From positions 69,038 to 133,037 of the forward strand of contig JAHQWJ010000107.1 of assembly GCA_029856125.1 (NCBI GenBank): a DNA stretch of 64,000 nt, in the 5' to 3' direction. A model generated the notes under the pieces. It searched no databases and was not told the origin of the DNA. It saw only the letters and a program-made list of their open reading frames with translations. The position numbers were made by a program, and so were the translations under genes. Each line of letters starts with the position of its first letter. Position 1 is the first letter of the stretch. This DNA comes from Promethearchaeia archaeon. GTDB lineage: Archaea; Asgardarchaeota; Lokiarchaeia; Sigyniarchaeales; SOKP01. Of the stretch, positions 38,262 through 59,218 are shown piece after piece.

Positions 38262-39452
38262 TTATTGATATCCATTCCACTTTTGCTCAAGGTTAGGATC
38301 TTGAATTGTTTCCGTAACATATTTCGCGTATTCTTCTCCTGTTGCCCCATTATCTCTTCCAGTTAGTACTACCTTCTTCTCGTATAGAGCGCAAACATCC
38401 AGAGCCATCTCTAATTGTTTAGCTTTATCGATATATCCTATATGATTCAAGAGTAATGCCGCTGCTTTGATAATACTCGAAGGATCTGCGTATTGGGCTC
38501 TTCCCTCGTCTACCATTCGTGGAGCAGAACCGTGAATTGCTTCAAACATAGAATATTGTTTTCCAATGTTAGCAGAGCCTGCCGTTCCAACGCCTCCTTG
38601 AATCTGTGCGGCTTCGTCGGTAATGATATCTCCATAAAGGTTCGGCGCCACAAAAACTCTGAATTGGCTTTGTCTTGCGGGATCTACCAATTTAGCAGTC
38701 ATAATGTCGATATACCAATCGTCCCACTTAACTTCTGGGTATTCTTTCGCGATCTCTTCTGCTATCGCAAGGAATCTTCCATCAGTCGCTTTAACTACGT
38801 TGGCTTTTGTCACCACAGTTACTCTATTGATGTTATTCTTCTTAGCGTAATCAAACGCAAGTCGAATTATCCTATCTGCCCCTTGTCTTGTTATAACTTT
38901 GAAATCAATAGAAAGATCTTCAGAAATGTTTAATCCTTGAGATCCAAGTACGTAAGCACCTTCAGTATTTTCTCTGAAAAACATCCAATCTATGTTCTTT
39001 TCAGGGACTTTTACTGGGCGAACGTTTGCAAAAAGATCCAATTCACGTCTCATAGTAACATTAGCACTTTCGATGTTTGGCCATTTATCTCCTTTTCGTG
39101 GAGTCGTAGTAGGCCCTTTGAGTAGGACGTGACATTTCTTTATTTCTACTAATACATCGTCAGGTATTGCTTTCATTACTTTTGCTCTGTTTTCAATAGT
39201 CAAACCTTCGATTACTCTAAGTTCAACACTTCCCTCCTCAACTTCTTCTTTTAGCAAGAATTCCAAAATGGATTGCGCATGTTTTGTAATATACGGGCCA
39301 ATGCCATCACCACCAACGAGACCAATGATAATCGGTTTTATCGTTGTGTAATCGACCCAGTCTCCCGCTCTTTTCATTCGTTCGACTCTTTCTAACTGTT
39401 CTTTTACTAACTTCTCAAAATGGTTTTTTGCGTCTTCAATTCTTTTGTCCAT
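38262..39452 (-). CDS. Isocitrate/isopropylmalate dehydrogenase family, IDH-type substrate motif
   Basis: GDGIGP, SANVTMRRELD (SxNxxxR), RENTEG, PNLYGDIITD, EAIHGSAP. Confidence 0.82.
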   Translation of the reverse strand: MDKRIEDAKNHFEKLVKEQLERVERMKRAGDWVDYTTIKPIIIGLVGGDGIGPYITKHAQSILEFLLKEEVEEGSVELRVIEGLTIENRAKVMKAIPDDVLVEIKKCHVLLKGPTTTPRKGDKWPNIESANVTMRRELDLFANVRPVKVPEKNIDWMFFRENTEGAYVLGSQGLNISEDLSIDFKVITRQGADRIIRLAFDYAKKNNINRVTVVTKANVVKATDGRFLAIAEEIAKEYPEVKWDDWYIDIMTAKLVDPARQSQFRVFVAPNLYGDIITDEAAQIQGGVGTAGSANIGKQYSMFEAIHGSAPRMVDEGRAQYADPSSIIKAAALLLNHIGYIDKAKQLEMALDVCALYEKKVVLTGRDNGATGEEYAKYVTETIQDPNLEQKWNGYQ

Positions 39453-39730
39453 TTTTATTTTTCCCTATTCGTTTATTGATTATTTAAAAAATCATTTTCT
39501 ATGTATGTAATTTCTAATCTCTTAAAAAGTGAACTGATTAATTTTCTCCCACAAGTATCCACGAATTGAATTAAGAACTGCAAGCAATTTCTATTCAATC
39601 GACTAAAAAGAGTTAGGAGTTAGGTATTTTGATGAATCCCGATGTTTAAAATTAAAGAATACCTATAAAAAATTGTTCAAAAAAAGTATGTTAGATTAAA
39701 TTATGATGCTTTTCATTAGGTGAATATAAG

Positions 39731-40498
39731 ATGTTGATACCCATTTTCATTACCTGTTTTGCCATATTCGGTGGAATAATGATTGGAATTTATATGATCA
39801 AATATAAAGGGCTTCCTATTGATGTTTGGAAACCGGGTGCCGCATGGACACGAGCATTTATCTATTTTTGCTTCTGTAACATATTTATTGCTGCTTCTGG
39901 AACGCTTGAACAAATATTTAGTAGATCTTTATTCACTCCGGAGCAAATCTCAAACCCTTATTGGAAGTCATACTTAATTTTCTGCTTTATCTTTGTTTTT
40001 ATAGCATATGCGATTATCTGGCCCAGGAGTACTCTTAAATTCGACCGAAAATATTATCTTGGCTCGGAAATCATATTTGGTATTATTTGGGGTTTTAGTA
40101 CTGGGGGACTTCTTCTTTCATTTTACCACCTTTGGAGTTTGTTAAGTATTCCTCCGTGGGCAATTTATGTTTTAAGCTTTAGTTGCATTGGTGCGTGGCA
40201 GTTTTTCATACACGCGTATTTCTGGGATATTTATGTTAGTCCCGAGCATGACACGCCTAAATCGATTCTCATTAAAACCTTTGCCTGCCACTTACCCAAT
40301 TCACTAATTAGTTTAGGTTTTCTTACTATTTGGAGTAATTATGCTATATTTATCTTTATCTTTATTATAGCATTGACCTCATCAACTATTGCACAAAGAT
40401 TTCCCGCTCCTTGGGCTAAAGGTAACTTTCACGCTCCTATGGTCAAATCTGGAATCTTTGGTTTGCCTTATGGTTCTGGATACGAAGAAAAAAAGTAA
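39731..40498 (+). CDS. Hypothetical integral membrane protein
   Basis: About seven hydrophobic segments; GGTGA RBS. Confidence 0.65.
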   Translation: MLIPIFITCFAIFGGIMIGIYMIKYKGLPIDVWKPGAAWTRAFIYFCFCNIFIAASGTLEQIFSRSLFTPEQISNPYWKSYLIFCFIFVFIAYAIIWPRSTLKFDRKYYLGSEIIFGIIWGFSTGGLLLSFYHLWSLLSIPPWAIYVLSFSCIGAWQFFIHAYFWDIYVSPEHDTPKSILIKTFACHLPNSLISLGFLTIWSNYAIFIFIFIIALTSSTIAQRFPAPWAKGNFHAPMVKSGIFGLPYGSGYEEKK

Positions 40499-40575
40499 TA
40501 TTGATCGAATTGTCCGATTTATTAATTTAAGTTGTAAAAAGAAATAAGTAAAAAATATCTTAGATTATGTTTAAA

Positions 40576-56603: not shown

Positions 56604-56723
56604 TGAATTTTACTAATTTGCTAATTAATACTACCTTATACTAACTCCAATTGTTATCTAAGCGTATTTTTTTATAGATTATTAGTAAAATCTTTTTAAT
56701 CTATATAAGAATATTAAATTCTA

Positions 56724-58436
56724 ATGAGAATCGAAGAATTTGATGTAGTTGTAGTAGGTGCCGGTTTAAGCGGTCTTAGAGCGGCTTTAGAGTTATCGAA
56801 AAAATGGAACACCGCGGTTATAAGTAAAGTTTATCCGGTCCGAAGTCATTCAGGAGCGGCTCAAGGGGGAATCAATGCAGCATTGGGTAATTTAGAAGAA
56901 AGTAAAAATGATACGCCAGAAGGACACGCGTTTGACACCGTAAAAGGCTCAGATTATCTCGCAGATCAAGATGTAGTAATGTTCATGTGTAAAGAAGCGC
57001 CAAAAATTGTTGTAGAGTTTGAAAGTATGGGAGCGCCATTTTCTAGATTGGATTCGGGTCTTATTGCACAACGACCTTTTGGCGGGGCAGGTTTTCCTAG
57101 AACTTGTTACGCAGGAGATCGCACCGGACACGCGTTACTCCACACGTTAAACGAACAAAGCGTAAGACACGGAGTAGAGTTTTTTAACGAATATTTTTTG
57201 ATAGATTTAATTGTCGTCAACGAAAAAATCGTGGGAGTGATTACATTAGATGTAGCGAAAGGCGAAATAGTTATTTTTCGGGCTTCGTACGTTATACTTG
57301 CAACAGGGGGATTTGGTAGGATTTTTAAACATTCGACAAATGCCTTAATTAACACTGGAGATGGCGTAGGTGCTGCATTTCGCGCTGGAGTGCCCATGCA
57401 AGACGTAGAATTCGTACAATTTCACCCCACTACGCTATTTGGAACCAACATATTAATAACTGAAGGTGCAAGAGGAGAAGGTGGGTATTTGTTTAATACA
57501 GAAGGAGAACGATTTATGGCTAAAACCGCTCCAAAAGCGATGGAACTTGCTCCACGAGACATAGTCGCGAGAGCTAACGATATCGAAGTTCTAGAGGGAA
57601 GGGGTTTTGAAGACGCGTACGTTCATTTAGACTTAACTCACCTAGGCGCTGACCGTATAAAAGAAAGGTTACCGGGGATAAGAGATATTTCTATCTTCTT
57701 TGCGGGGGTAGATCCCATTGAAGAACCAATACCAGTACAACCTGGACAGCATTACTCGATGGGAGGAATCGGCACGAAATTTAAAGGTGTATACGGAGAA
57801 ACAGATCTTTATGGATTGTATACAATTGGTGAGTGTTCTTGTCTTTCCGTTCACGGTGCGAATCGTTTAGGGGGAAATTCGTTATTGGAAACCTCTGTTT
57901 TTGGTCGTTATATTGGAAGAAAGCTATTAGAAATTGGATTAACAAAAAAGATTTCCTTAAGCGATGTAAAAAACGCTGAAGAGATTGCCTTAGAAAATGT
58001 TGAAAAACTACTAAAAAGCTGGGATAATAATACAGGCAAAAAACCAGTAGAAATTAAAAATGCCATGGGCGAGACTATGAATAAAAACGTTGGAGTTTTT
58101 AGAACTCACGACGATCTTTCAAAAGCATACGATACTCTTGTTAACTTACAAAAAAACTTTTTAAATGTCAAAATTTCTACAGAAGATCGTAAATTCAATT
58201 ATGGTTTACTTCGAAATTTGGAACTTCGATCGATGTTAGACATTGCGGAAGCTACTGCGTATGCAGCTCTTTGGAGAAAAGAAAGCAGAGGTGGACATTA
58301 TCGTTGGGACTACGATTCACGAGATGACAACAATTTTCTTAGTCATTCAATGATATATCGCGTAAAAGATGGATTAAATTTAAAAACCAAACCAGTCGTG
58401 TTAGGTATATTTGAAGTAAAAGAGAGGAAGTATTAA
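56724..58436 (+). CDS. sdhA: Succinate dehydrogenase/fumarate reductase flavoprotein subunit
   Basis: [10 protein letters not shown] (FAD-His), [49 protein letters not shown]. Confidence 0.93.
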
Positions 58437-58453
58437 GTGGAATGTGATTAAAA

Positions 58454-59218
58454 GTGAATGAAAAGCAAAAATTTTTAGTTTATAGGAATTTAGGAGAAGG
58501 ATCAGTTCGATACGAGAGATTTGAAGTACCTCTATCGAAAAGTATGAGTATATTAGATGCTCTTTTTTACATACAAGATTATCACGATTCTACTTTCGCT
58601 TTCCGTTATGCTTGTAGAGGAGCAATTTGCGGTAGCTGCGGAATGATGATTGATAAAGTTCCAATGCTAGCTTGCAGAACTCAAGTCTCAACGGTTAAAA
58701 CCGCTAAAAAACCAATAAATCTTCCTGAAGTTGTTTTTGGGGATACATCTGATTGGGACCAGGAAAATGAGATTTTAATCGAACCATTACCAAATATGAA
58801 GGTTGCAAAAGATTTAGTCGTAGATATGGAACCGTTCTGGAAGTTTTATAGGGAAGTCGAGCCCTACTTTACAAATGATTGGAACGATGTGGTTCCAGAA
58901 ACGACGCAATCTCCTAAAGAAATGAAAACAATCGAACGGTTAGTCTATTGCATCCTATGTGGAATATGTTGGATGTGCCCTGTGAACGCAAGAAACATCG
59001 ATTATCTAGGTCCAGCGCAATTAGCAAAATCGGATAGGTTTATACGAGATTCTAGAGTTGACAGCATAAAACAAGAAAGAGTTGTATCGCGAGTTTTAAA
59101 AGATGACGCTGTTCCCGCTTGCGAAAAGCTTTTTGTCTGTAATAGAGTGTGTCCTAAGGGAGTTATGCCCGGAACTGCTATTAAAGATATCAGAGATAAT
59201 TGGATTGTAGAAAAATGA
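58454..59218 (+). CDS. sdhB: Succinate dehydrogenase/fumarate reductase iron-sulfur subunit
   Basis: CRGAICGSC...LAC (2Fe-2S), DLVVD, CILCGICWMCP, CEKLFVCNRVCP. Confidence 0.88.
   Translation: MNEKQKFLVYRNLGEGSVRYERFEVPLSKSMSILDALFYIQDYHDSTFAFRYACRGAICGSCGMMIDKVPMLACRTQVSTVKTAKKPINLPEVVFGDTSDWDQENEILIEPLPNMKVAKDLVVDMEPFWKFYREVEPYFTNDWNDVVPETTQSPKEMKTIERLVYCILCGICWMCPVNARNIDYLGPAQLAKSDRFIRDSRVDSIKQERVVSRVLKDDAVPACEKLFVCNRVCPKGVMPGTAIKDIRDNWIVEK

What the first reader, a model, noticed from the sequence alone, without database searches (positions are those of the whole stretch)
38262..59218. All three diagnostic reductive-TCA enzyme types cluster within ~21 kb
Seen: IDH-type dehydrogenase, AclAB, SucCD, KorAB-type oxidoreductase and SdhAB/FrdAB. 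Established: ATP-citrate lyase, 2-oxoglutarate:ferredoxin oxidoreductase and fumarate reductase are the hallmark rTCA enzymes, whereas Lokiarchaeia are usually described as Wood-Ljungdahl fermenters. Inference: either a reductive TCA cycle, or a branched route where amino-acid-derived 2-oxoglutarate is oxidised to succinate (ATP) or carboxylated to citrate and cleaved to acetyl-CoA. Caveats: the genes are interspersed and on both strands; aconitase, fumarase and MDH are not in the window; OFOR specificity cannot be read from motifs.
Basis: partly seen in the sequence, partly recalled or inferred. Interest (0 to 1): 0.7.

Follow-up and report, generated by a model that had tools for sequence, protein, structure and literature searches.

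The report
Asgard citric-acid-cycle cluster with citrate lyase
This Loki-type Asgard archaeon really does keep citrate lyase, a 2-oxoacid oxidoreductase, succinyl-CoA synthetase, isocitrate and succinate dehydrogenase genes together, but such clusters are already reported for these archaea, and comparison with relatives points to a flexible organic-acid hub of a heterotroph more than to a CO2-fixing cycle.

Summary
Window 38262-59218 encodes icd, aclAB, sucCD, a two-subunit 2-oxoacid:ferredoxin oxidoreductase and sdhAB, at exactly the stated borders.

The genome (99% complete) also holds the rest of a formal cycle:
- AcnA, class II fumarase and two citrate synthases on the 13-kb contig C150
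- a COG2055-type dehydrogenase as the MDH candidate
- archaeal PEP carboxylase, GTP-PEPCK, several PEP-synthase/PPDK-family genes and Por-like oxidoreductases

Only ACL is diagnostic of a reductive cycle. SdhA carries SDH-type marks and has no membrane anchor gene.

In 121 genomes of the class I found ACL in 72, SdhA in 25, citrate synthase in 29 and acetyl-CoA synthase (Wood-Ljungdahl) in 98. In the window's own genus ACL is in 30 of 34 and SdhA in 7 of 34. Most ACL carriers therefore cannot close a cycle. The block that closes it occurs with ACL, with citrate synthase, or with both.

Bulzu et al. (bioRxiv 10.1101/385732) already reported this gene set for Lokiarchaeia, and this scan followed up the same kind of cluster on at least five other genomes. 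Interest is low to moderate.

The parts
38262..39452 (-). icd: isocitrate dehydrogenase, probably NADP-linked
   Evidence: Iso_dh 226 bits. Best PDB relatives are IDHs. It keeps the S-x-N...R isocitrate residues. The cofactor site reads HGSAP-RM where NAD-IDHs have HGSAP-DI. NADP preference is an inference.
39731..40498 (+). 255-aa polytopic membrane protein, function unknown
   Evidence: No Pfam match; hydrophobic throughout; kept between aclA and icd in 8 related loci.
40576..42411 (-). aclA: ATP-citrate lyase large subunit (CoA-ligase plus citryl-CoA lyase module)
   Evidence: 781 bits to 6hxi_B, 741 bits to human ACLY, QFGHAGA kept; Pfam.
42413..43711 (-). aclB: ATP-citrate lyase small subunit (ATP-grasp plus citrate-binding domain)
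   Evidence: PF16114 259 bits, PF24948 219 bits. 67-94% identical in 53 Asgard species genomes.
43992..45347 (+). Lpd-like flavoprotein disulfide reductase, divergent from aclB; role unknown
   Evidence: Pyr_redox_2 plus the dimerisation domain. Below all NCBIfam cut-offs. 219 bits to Lpd and 209 bits to MerA structures. Kept at this place in at least 8 relatives.
45354..45710 (-). 118-aa tandem SH3-like protein inside the sucCD-aclBA string
   Evidence: SH3_2, SH3_1 and SH3_9 matches. Kept at 62-92% identity in at least 12 relatives.
45724..46593 (-). sucD: succinyl-CoA synthetase alpha
   Evidence: NF004230 376.5 bits, cut-off 336.
46586..47704 (-). sucC: succinyl-CoA synthetase beta
   Evidence: NF001913 366.8 bits, cut-off 370; overlaps sucD by 8 bp.
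47903..49327 (+). MFS_2/GPH-type transporter divergent from sucC; probably glycoside rather than carboxylate transport
   Evidence: PF13347 127 bits. Beside sucC in about 25 loci. In G065 a GH3 glycosidase lies about 1 kb downstream on the same strand, with one 267-aa ORF between.
51611..52912 (-). AbfT-like 4-hydroxybutyrate/acyl-CoA:acetate CoA-transferase, divergent from korA
   Evidence: 506 bits to 3eh7. Kept at this place only in L027. Two paralogues elsewhere in the genome.
53020..54771 (+). korA-type OFOR alpha (gamma-alpha fusion), 'type A'
   Evidence: TIGR03710 589 bits. 236-243 bits to MmOGOR and StOFOR. This score class lies beside sdhA in relatives.
54758..55624 (+). korB-type OFOR beta
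   Evidence: NF008821 427 bits, TIGR02177 340 bits above cut-off.
55701..56603 (+). nucleoside-hydrolase-family gene between korB and sdhA; probably a passenger
   Evidence: PF01156 106 bits. Not found at this place in G065, G066, G123 or G061.
56724..58436 (+). sdhA/frdA flavoprotein
   Evidence: TIGR01812 749 bits. N-terminus reads [10 protein letters not shown]: a His for covalent FAD and the SdhA-type Gln.
58454..59218 (+). sdhB/frdB iron-sulfur subunit, no CCG fusion, no anchor gene after it
   Evidence: Fer2_3 plus Fer4_8. TIGR00384 200 bits. The next gene is on the opposite strand. No Sdh_cyt match in the genome.

Best explanation
The region is part of a modular, reversible citric-acid-type hub of an anaerobic, largely heterotrophic Lokiarchaeon. 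It is not a dedicated CO2-fixing cycle.

**Core, near-universal in the genus: icd-aclAB-sucCD plus an aconitase and an OFOR.**
- Amino-acid-derived 2-oxoglutarate (glutamate dehydrogenases, aminotransferases) can be oxidised by OFOR to succinyl-CoA. This yields reduced ferredoxin, and SucCD then gives ATP and succinate.
- Alternatively it can be reductively carboxylated by the (probably NADP-linked) IDH to isocitrate and citrate. ACL then splits citrate into acetyl-CoA and oxaloacetate.

**Accessory block, present in this genome and a minority of relatives: korAB(type A)-sdhAB, continued on contig C150 by fumC, an FMN-dependent 2-hydroxyacid dehydrogenase, citrate synthase (two copies here) and acnA.**
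- This block formally closes the cycle and lets carbon and electrons flow either way around it.
- There are no membrane anchors, no futalosine-pathway quinone genes and no terminal oxidases. I therefore expect SdhAB to act mainly as a soluble fumarate-reducing electron sink, with an unknown donor.

**Shown:** gene identities, synteny and distribution.

**Inferred:** substrate of the OFOR, cofactor of the IDH, direction of every step, and the role of SdhAB.
For: Gene identities.

Rest of the cycle in the genome:
- AcnA, FumC and two citrate synthases on C150.
- An Ldh_2-type dehydrogenase.

Distribution in 121 class genomes (own genus in brackets):
- ACL 72 (30/34)
- SdhA 25 (7/34)
- citrate synthase 29 (7/34)
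- CdhC 98 (27/34)

By my count from those tables:
- 55 of 72 ACL carriers lack SdhA, and 59 of 72 lack this type of citrate synthase.
- Of the 20 genomes with the window's SdhA type, 9 have ACL plus CS, 6 have ACL only and 5 have CS only.

In long contigs of relatives the whole set is one supercluster: icd-aclAB..sucDC <> korAB-sdhAB-fumC-FMN_dh-CS-acnA. G061 has the block without ACL.

Heterotrophic context:
- Three tandem GDH genes.
- Seven OFOR/IOR alpha subunits.
- GTP-PEPCK in 13 of 13 genomes searched.
- Aminotransferase, OTC, carbamate-kinase family and AOR genes upstream in the window.

No respiration found: Sdh_cyt, MqnA/D, cytochrome bd and COX1 all gave no match.
Against: - On paper every enzyme of an ACL-type rTCA plus assimilation is present: Por-like OFORs, PEP synthase/PPDK family, archaeal PEPC. 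CO2 fixation therefore cannot be excluded.
- SdhA has the covalent-FAD His and the Gln typical of succinate-oxidising enzymes. That sits uneasily with a purely reductive role.
- MAG incompleteness and kinship among the sampled genomes weaken the distribution argument.
- A Re-type citrate synthase, menaquinone synthesis by the Men pathway and CCG-type anchors were not searched.
- No expression or labelling data exist.
Confidence: 0.55

Rival explanations
1. A working reductive (Arnon-Buchanan) TCA cycle fixes CO2, autotrophically or mixotrophically, alongside or instead of the Wood-Ljungdahl pathway. ACL is the citrate-cleaving step, KorAB the 2-oxoglutarate synthase and SdhAB the fumarate reductase.
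For: - All steps are encoded: ACL, IDH with a probable NADP site, two-subunit OFOR of the class that includes rTCA OGORs, Sdh/Frd without anchors, AcnA and FumC.
- PEPC, the PEPS/PPDK family and Por-like OFORs are also present.
- No respiratory chain was found that would drive succinate oxidation.
- This is the published reading for Lokiarchaeia.
Against: - Two citrate synthases sit in the same block.
- The block occurs with citrate synthase alone in 5 of 20 genomes.
- SdhA is absent from 55 of 72 ACL carriers.
- Acetyl-CoA synthase of the Wood-Ljungdahl pathway is far more conserved (98 of 121).
- No pyruvate carboxylase was found.
- PEPC is patchy in the genus.
- SdhA has SDH-type marks.
Confidence: 0.2
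2. The accessory block gives a complete oxidative TCA cycle. Acetyl-CoA enters through citrate synthase and is oxidised to CO2, and SdhAB plus the flavin dehydrogenase pass electrons to an unidentified acceptor. Candidates are a molybdopterin reductase, or rubredoxin-linked O2 or peroxide reduction.
For: - The gene order sdhAB-fumC-FMN_dh-CS-acnA follows the oxidative pathway order.
- Citrate synthase co-occurs with SdhA.
- SdhA has the His for covalent FAD and the SdhA-type Gln.
- A DMSO-reductase-family gene starts at the end of C150.
- A 694-aa molybdopterin oxidoreductase lies beside korA in G066.
- A rubredoxin-pyruvate-oxidase-like gene sits in the block.
Against: - No Sdh membrane anchor.
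- No futalosine quinone genes.
- No cytochrome bd or heme-copper oxidase.
- Succinate oxidation needs a high-potential acceptor, and none was identified.
Confidence: 0.15
3. SucCD, SdhAB, FumC and PEPC serve a dicarboxylate/4-hydroxybutyrate-type route, or its catabolic mirror: succinyl-CoA to 4-hydroxybutyrate to crotonyl-CoA to acetyl-CoA or butyrate. The AbfT-like CoA-transferase beside korA would belong to this route.
For: - The CoA-transferase scores 506 bits to 4-hydroxybutyrate CoA-transferase.
- There are four AbfD-like genes, 316 bits to 1u8v. One lies next to a second two-subunit OFOR beta on C108.
- PEPC is present.
- Two Lokiarchaeia MAGs were reported to hold all DC/4HB genes (PMC9802188).
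Against: - The CoA-transferase is kept at this place in only one of 53 loci.
- AbfD does not follow the type B OFOR in four relatives.
- Succinyl-CoA reductase and succinic semialdehyde reductase were not searched.
- This route does not explain ACL and IDH.
Confidence: 0.1

Closest known systems
Lokiarchaeia 'reverse TCA' reconstruction of Bulzu et al. (bioRxiv 10.1101/385732, read)
   Same: The same gene set is reported: a complete TCA with IDH, 2-oxoglutarate:ferredoxin oxidoreductase and ACL; no sdhC/sdhD; MDH found only as a COG2055-type protein; and the Wood-Ljungdahl pathway present.
   Different: That work reads the set as autotrophic CO2 fixation. Here SdhA and citrate synthase turn out to be accessory within one genus, and this genome has two citrate synthases as well as ACL.
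Arnon-Buchanan reductive TCA cycle of Chlorobium and other autotrophs
   Same: Two-subunit ACL, a ferredoxin-dependent 2-oxoacid oxidoreductase, an Sdh/Frd-type enzyme, and PEPC and PFOR-like enzymes.
   Different: - AclA is much closer to Methanothrix and human ACL (781 and 741 bits) than to Chlorobium (427 bits).
- Citrate synthase is co-encoded.
- The set is not conserved across the genus.
- No autotrophy has been shown.
Methanothrix ACLY-A/B (PDB 6hxi, 6znw) and human ACLY; the cytosolic IDH-aconitase-ACLY reductive carboxylation route of mammalian cells (the route is from my own knowledge)
   Same: ACL of the same subtype. icd and aclAB are adjacent, which fits 2-oxoglutarate to citrate to acetyl-CoA.
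   Different: Separate subunits rather than a fusion. Published trees place eukaryotic ACL with DPANN or Thermoplasmatota rather than Asgard (PMC11976288).
Two-subunit OFORs: Magnetococcus OGOR (6n2n) and Sulfolobus tokodaii OFOR (5b46, 5b48)
   Same: The same gamma-alpha fusion plus beta architecture without a ferredoxin domain. Characterised members accept 2-oxoglutarate.
   Different: Only about 236-243 bits to either, so specificity cannot be assigned. The class carries two deep paralogue types, A and B, about 30% identical.
Dicarboxylate/4-hydroxybutyrate cycle genes reported in two Lokiarchaeia MAGs (PMC9802188)
   Same: PEPC, fumarase, Sdh/Frd, SucCD, AbfD-like dehydratases and a 4-hydroxybutyrate CoA-transferase-like enzyme are present.
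   Different: The two reductases were not tested. The CoA-transferase is not conserved in the cluster.

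Membership tests
ACL-type reductive TCA cycle | ATP-citrate lyase with a citrate-binding domain, a phosphohistidine loop and a citryl-CoA lyase module | tested here: met
   PF16114, PF24948, Ligase_CoA and the citrate-synthase fold. 781 bits to 6hxi_B, QFGHAGA kept.
ACL-type reductive TCA cycle | Ferredoxin-dependent oxidoreductase specific for 2-oxoglutarate, working as a synthase | tested here: inconclusive
   The family and two-subunit architecture are met, and members of that class accept 2-oxoglutarate. 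It lies beside sdhAB and sucCD. Specificity and direction cannot be read from sequence. Other candidates exist: a Kor-like alpha on C142, and a type B beta on C108 whose alpha was not found in the assembly.
ACL-type reductive TCA cycle | Fumarate reductase acting in the reductive direction | tested here: inconclusive
   SdhAB/FrdAB family. No anchor. SdhA-type Gln and a covalent-FAD His. No respiratory acceptor found.
ACL-type reductive TCA cycle | Remaining steps encoded: aconitase, IDH, succinyl-CoA synthetase, fumarase, MDH | tested here: met
   AcnA and FumC, IDH, SucCD. MDH is only a candidate: an Ldh_2-type protein or the FMN_dh beside fumC. No Ldh_1_N match and no malic enzyme.
ACL-type reductive TCA cycle | Assimilation enzymes: pyruvate synthase, PEP synthase/PPDK, and PEP or pyruvate carboxylase | tested here: met
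   Por-like OFORs, PPDK_N family, and archaeal PEPC split over C129/C40. No PYC_OADA match.
ACL-type reductive TCA cycle | Key enzymes kept together across the lineage, without a competing citrate synthase | tested here: not met
   Two citrate synthases. In the genus: ACL 30/34, SdhA 7/34, CS 7/34.
ACL-type reductive TCA cycle | Demonstrated net CO2 fixation through the cycle | not testable with these tools
   Needs labelling or enzyme assays.
Asgard ACL-centred TCA cluster (Bulzu et al.) | ACL, IDH, OFOR and SucCD with Sdh lacking sdhCD, and a COG2055-type MDH | tested here: met
   Synteny in 53 species genomes.
Respiratory oxidative TCA cycle | Citrate synthase | tested here: met
   Two TIGR01800 matches above cut-off on C150.
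Respiratory oxidative TCA cycle | Membrane-anchored succinate:quinone reductase, quinone synthesis and a terminal oxidase | tested here: not met
   No Sdh_cyt, no VitK2_biosynth, no Cyt_bd_oxida_I, no COX1. The Men pathway and CCG-type anchors were not searched.
DC/4HB cycle or 4-hydroxybutyrate fermentation | 4-hydroxybutyryl-CoA dehydratase and a 4-hydroxybutyrate-activating enzyme | tested here: met
   Four AbfD-like genes. An AbfT-like CoA-transferase in the window.
DC/4HB cycle or 4-hydroxybutyrate fermentation | Succinyl-CoA reductase and succinic semialdehyde reductase | not tested

The most novel reading that the evidence does not exclude
The strongly conserved FMN-dependent 2-hydroxyacid dehydrogenase that always sits between fumC and citrate synthase is the cycle's real malate dehydrogenase. 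It is found in 39 of 121 class genomes and in 18 of the 20 with this SdhA type. Together with the anchor-less SdhAB it would form a quinone-free, flavin-linked TCA cycle that hands electrons to a soluble acceptor not yet identified. ACL and citrate synthase would be interchangeable at the citrate step.
Probability: 0.25. Interest if true: 0.6.

Novelty: already known. Interest (0 to 1): 0.3.

Why it matters
Models of eukaryote origin and sediment carbon budgets both depend on what Asgard archaea do with carbon. If this cluster fixed CO2, Lokiarchaeia would hold two fixation pathways. If it is a reversible hub fed by amino acids, ACL supplies acetyl-CoA from citrate much as it does in the eukaryotic cytosol.

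The gene set is already published. The added value here is comparative: ACL is near-universal in the genus, while the genes that close the cycle are optional and occur with ACL, citrate synthase or both. That warns against scoring 'rTCA' from marker genes alone.

Tried and rejected
- **Searches that found nothing in the genome:** class I fumarase, canonical LDH/MDH, malic enzyme, pyruvate carboxylase/OadA, Sdh cytochrome anchor, MqnA/D, cytochrome bd and COX1.
- **OFOR specificity from solved relatives:** MmOGOR and the broad-range StOFOR score about equally, so this is inconclusive.
- **A conserved partner for SdhAB by synteny:** none found. In compact clusters fumC follows sdhB directly. Gap genes in relatives are peptidases, a glycosidase, a sulfatase, a molybdopterin oxidoreductase (G066 only) and a small NAD_binding_1 protein annotated after sucD in G066, with a same-sized, unannotated ORF after sucD in G061.
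- **MFS gene beside sucC as a carboxylate carrier:** rejected as unsupported. It is GPH-like, and in G065 a GH3 glycosidase lies about 1 kb downstream on the same strand.
- **A general link between the second OFOR type and AbfD:** seen on C108, absent in four relatives.
- **ESM Atlas and homologue searches for the FMN_dh protein:** these gave only generic 'alpha-hydroxy-acid oxidizing protein' names and Asgard orthologues.
- **NCBIfam naming of the AbfD-like proteins:** failed, with only weak HpaB matches. PDB comparison settled them as AbfD-like.

Full report
**What is there**

The window is the last 64 kb of contig C112 of a 3.69-Mb, 153-contig genome (99.1% complete, 6.15% contamination). 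Earlier notes and the titles of related records place it among Loki-type Asgard archaea, named 'Promethearchaeota' in NCBI.

- Minus strand: sucC-sucD, a tandem SH3-like protein, aclB-aclA and icd.
- Plus strand: a Lpd-like flavoprotein divergent from aclB, a membrane protein between aclA and icd, an MFS_2 transporter divergent from sucC, and korA-korB, a nucleoside-hydrolase-like gene and sdhA-sdhB.
- An AbfT-like CoA-transferase is divergent from korA.

**Are the enzymes what they seem?**

- **ACL** is genuine and of the Methanothrix/eukaryote subtype. AclA scores 781 bits to 6hxi_B, 741 bits to human ACLY and 427 bits to Chlorobium, and keeps the phosphohistidine loop.
- **The Iso_dh protein** keeps the isocitrate-binding Ser, Asn and Arg residues, and its best solved relatives are IDHs. 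Where NAD-IDHs read HGSAP-DI it reads HGSAP-RM, which suggests NADP use. That is an inference.
- **The OFOR** is of the two-subunit type without a ferredoxin domain. It resembles the Magnetococcus OGOR and the broad-range Sulfolobus OFOR about equally. A 2026 review says such enzymes generally accept 2-oxoglutarate. Specificity remains unproven.
- **SdhAB** is a canonical flavoprotein and iron-sulfur pair. The next gene is on the other strand, and no Sdh_cyt anchor exists in the genome. SdhA has the histidine for covalent FAD followed by Gln. This is the E. coli SdhA state, where FrdA has Glu.

So only ACL is truly diagnostic of a reductive cycle.

**The rest of the cycle**

Contig C150 (13.3 kb) carries, in order:
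- a rubredoxin-pyruvate-oxidase-like gene and a hydrolase
- a class II fumarase (435 bits to fumarases, 385 bits to aspartase)
- an FMN-dependent 2-hydroxyacid dehydrogenase
- two citrate synthases and AcnA
- the start of a DMSO-reductase-family gene

There is no class I fumarase, no LDH/MDH-family enzyme and no malic enzyme. The only classical MDH candidate is an Ldh_2 (COG2055) protein on C126.

The genome also has:
- Por-like and Kor-like OFORs and two IORs
- PEP synthase/PPDK-family genes
- an archaeal PEP carboxylase cut by a contig break
- GTP-PEPCK
- acetyl-CoA synthase
- three tandem glutamate dehydrogenases
- four AbfD-like dehydratases

I found no pyruvate carboxylase, futalosine-pathway genes, cytochrome bd or heme-copper oxidase.

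On paper a complete rTCA exists.

**Comparison with relatives**

AclB was recovered from 53 Asgard species genomes at 67-94% identity. The order sucCD-aclBA-icd is widely kept.

In long contigs of relatives the window genes and the C150 genes form one supercluster: icd-aclAB..sucDC <> korAB-sdhAB-(pox)-fumC-FMN_dh-CS-acnA. C150 therefore very likely continues C112.

In a sample of 121 genomes of the class (own genus in brackets):

| Gene | Class (of 121) | Own genus (of 34) |
|---|---|---|
| ACL | 72 | 30 |
| SdhA | 25 | 7 |
| Citrate synthase | 29 | 7 |
| CdhC | 98 | 27 |

The two-subunit OFOR splits into two types. Type A is the window's; it lies beside sdhA. Type B is widespread, lies elsewhere and is only about 30% identical.

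Counting by eye from those tables:
- 55 of 72 ACL carriers lack SdhA.
- 59 of 72 ACL carriers lack this citrate synthase.
- Of the 20 genomes with the window's SdhA type, 9 have ACL and CS, 6 have ACL only and 5 have CS only.

These genomes are kin and many are incomplete, so the numbers are descriptive.

**Reading**

An autotroph that depends on rTCA should keep its key enzymes together. Here ACL is routine, while the cycle-closing block is optional and works with either citrate enzyme. The Wood-Ljungdahl marker is the more conserved.

Glutamate dehydrogenases, many 2-oxoacid oxidoreductases, PEPCK, and an aminotransferase/OTC/carbamate-kinase/AOR set 10 kb upstream fit amino-acid fermentation.

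I therefore favour a reversible hub (0.55).
- 2-oxoglutarate goes either to succinyl-CoA and succinate, yielding ferredoxin and ATP, or by reductive carboxylation to citrate, which ACL splits.
- In this genome the accessory block closes the loop.
- SdhAB probably serves as a soluble fumarate-reducing sink, because no high-potential acceptor is encoded.

Rivals:
- a true rTCA (0.2)
- an oxidative cycle with an unknown acceptor (0.15), supported by the SDH-type marks, the gene order and nearby molybdopterin genes
- a 4-hydroxybutyrate-type route (0.1)

**Known or new**

Bulzu et al. (2018) already reported for Lokiarchaeia a complete TCA with IDH, OGOR and ACL read as rTCA, the missing sdhC/D and the COG2055 MDH. 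Later work lists ACL across Asgard archaea and places eukaryotic ACL elsewhere in trees. Garritano et al. reported DC/4HB genes in two Lokiarchaeia MAGs.

This scan has followed up the same kind of cluster on at least five other genomes, with similar verdicts.

The finding is real but already known.

The least explained item is the FMN_dh gene fixed in the MDH position. Its catalytic C-terminal half is intact, and its N-terminal half resembles no solved member. I give it as the novel case.

Noticed in passing
window 45354-45710 (-): A 118-aa protein made of two SH3-like repeats sits inside the sucCD-aclBA gene string. It is kept at 62-92% identity at the same place in at least 12 related genomes. 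No function is known.
   Followed up: partly
L009 (G000:C150) 4805-5860 (+): An FMN-dependent 2-hydroxyacid dehydrogenase always lies between fumC and citrate synthase (G000, G061, G065, G066, G123). It is present in 39 of 121 class genomes, 37 of which also have ACL or CS. It keeps K...SNHGGR...DGGxR, but its first 200 residues resemble no solved member. It is a candidate flavin-linked malate dehydrogenase.
   Followed up: partly
window 39731-40498 (+): A 255-aa polytopic membrane protein without a Pfam family is kept between aclA and icd in 8 relatives.
   Followed up: no
window 43992-45347 (+): An Lpd-like flavoprotein disulfide reductase is divergent from aclB and kept there in at least 8 relatives. 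It scores below every NCBIfam cut-off, and I did not search for lipoate-dependent complexes.
   Followed up: partly
G000:C129:5-523 (-) and G000:C40:5940-6986 (-): The archaeal-type PEP carboxylase gene is cut by a contig break, and the two contig ends overlap in the gene. PEPC is patchy: found in 4 of the 9 genus genomes searched (counting this one) and in no other family searched.
   Followed up: partly
G000:C126:167960-171459: Three glutamate dehydrogenase genes lie in tandem.
   Followed up: no
L089 (G000:C108) 658-3199 (-): An AbfD-like 4-hydroxybutyryl-CoA dehydratase lies next to the beta subunit of a second (type B) two-subunit OFOR, whose alpha gene is lost at the contig end. This adjacency is not seen in four relatives.
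   Followed up: yes
window 12003-25927: A class-III aminotransferase, a carbamate-kinase-family gene, OTC, a DAO plus 2Fe-2S/flavoprotein pair, two ABC exporters and an aldehyde:ferredoxin oxidoreductase lie here. This is an amino-acid catabolic set 10 kb upstream of the TCA genes.
   Followed up: partly
window 59302-63126 (-): A 1274-aa protein with a C-terminal carbon-nitrogen hydrolase domain separates sdhB from the contig end. In relatives a pyruvate-oxidase-like gene and fumC lie at that place.
   Followed up: no
L083 (G066:C21) 7272-9356 (+); L009 12921-13352 (+): Molybdopterin oxidoreductase genes lie at the edge of the TCA supercluster in two genomes: a 694-aa gene beside korA in G066, and a DMSO-reductase-family start at the end of C150 in this genome.
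   Followed up: no
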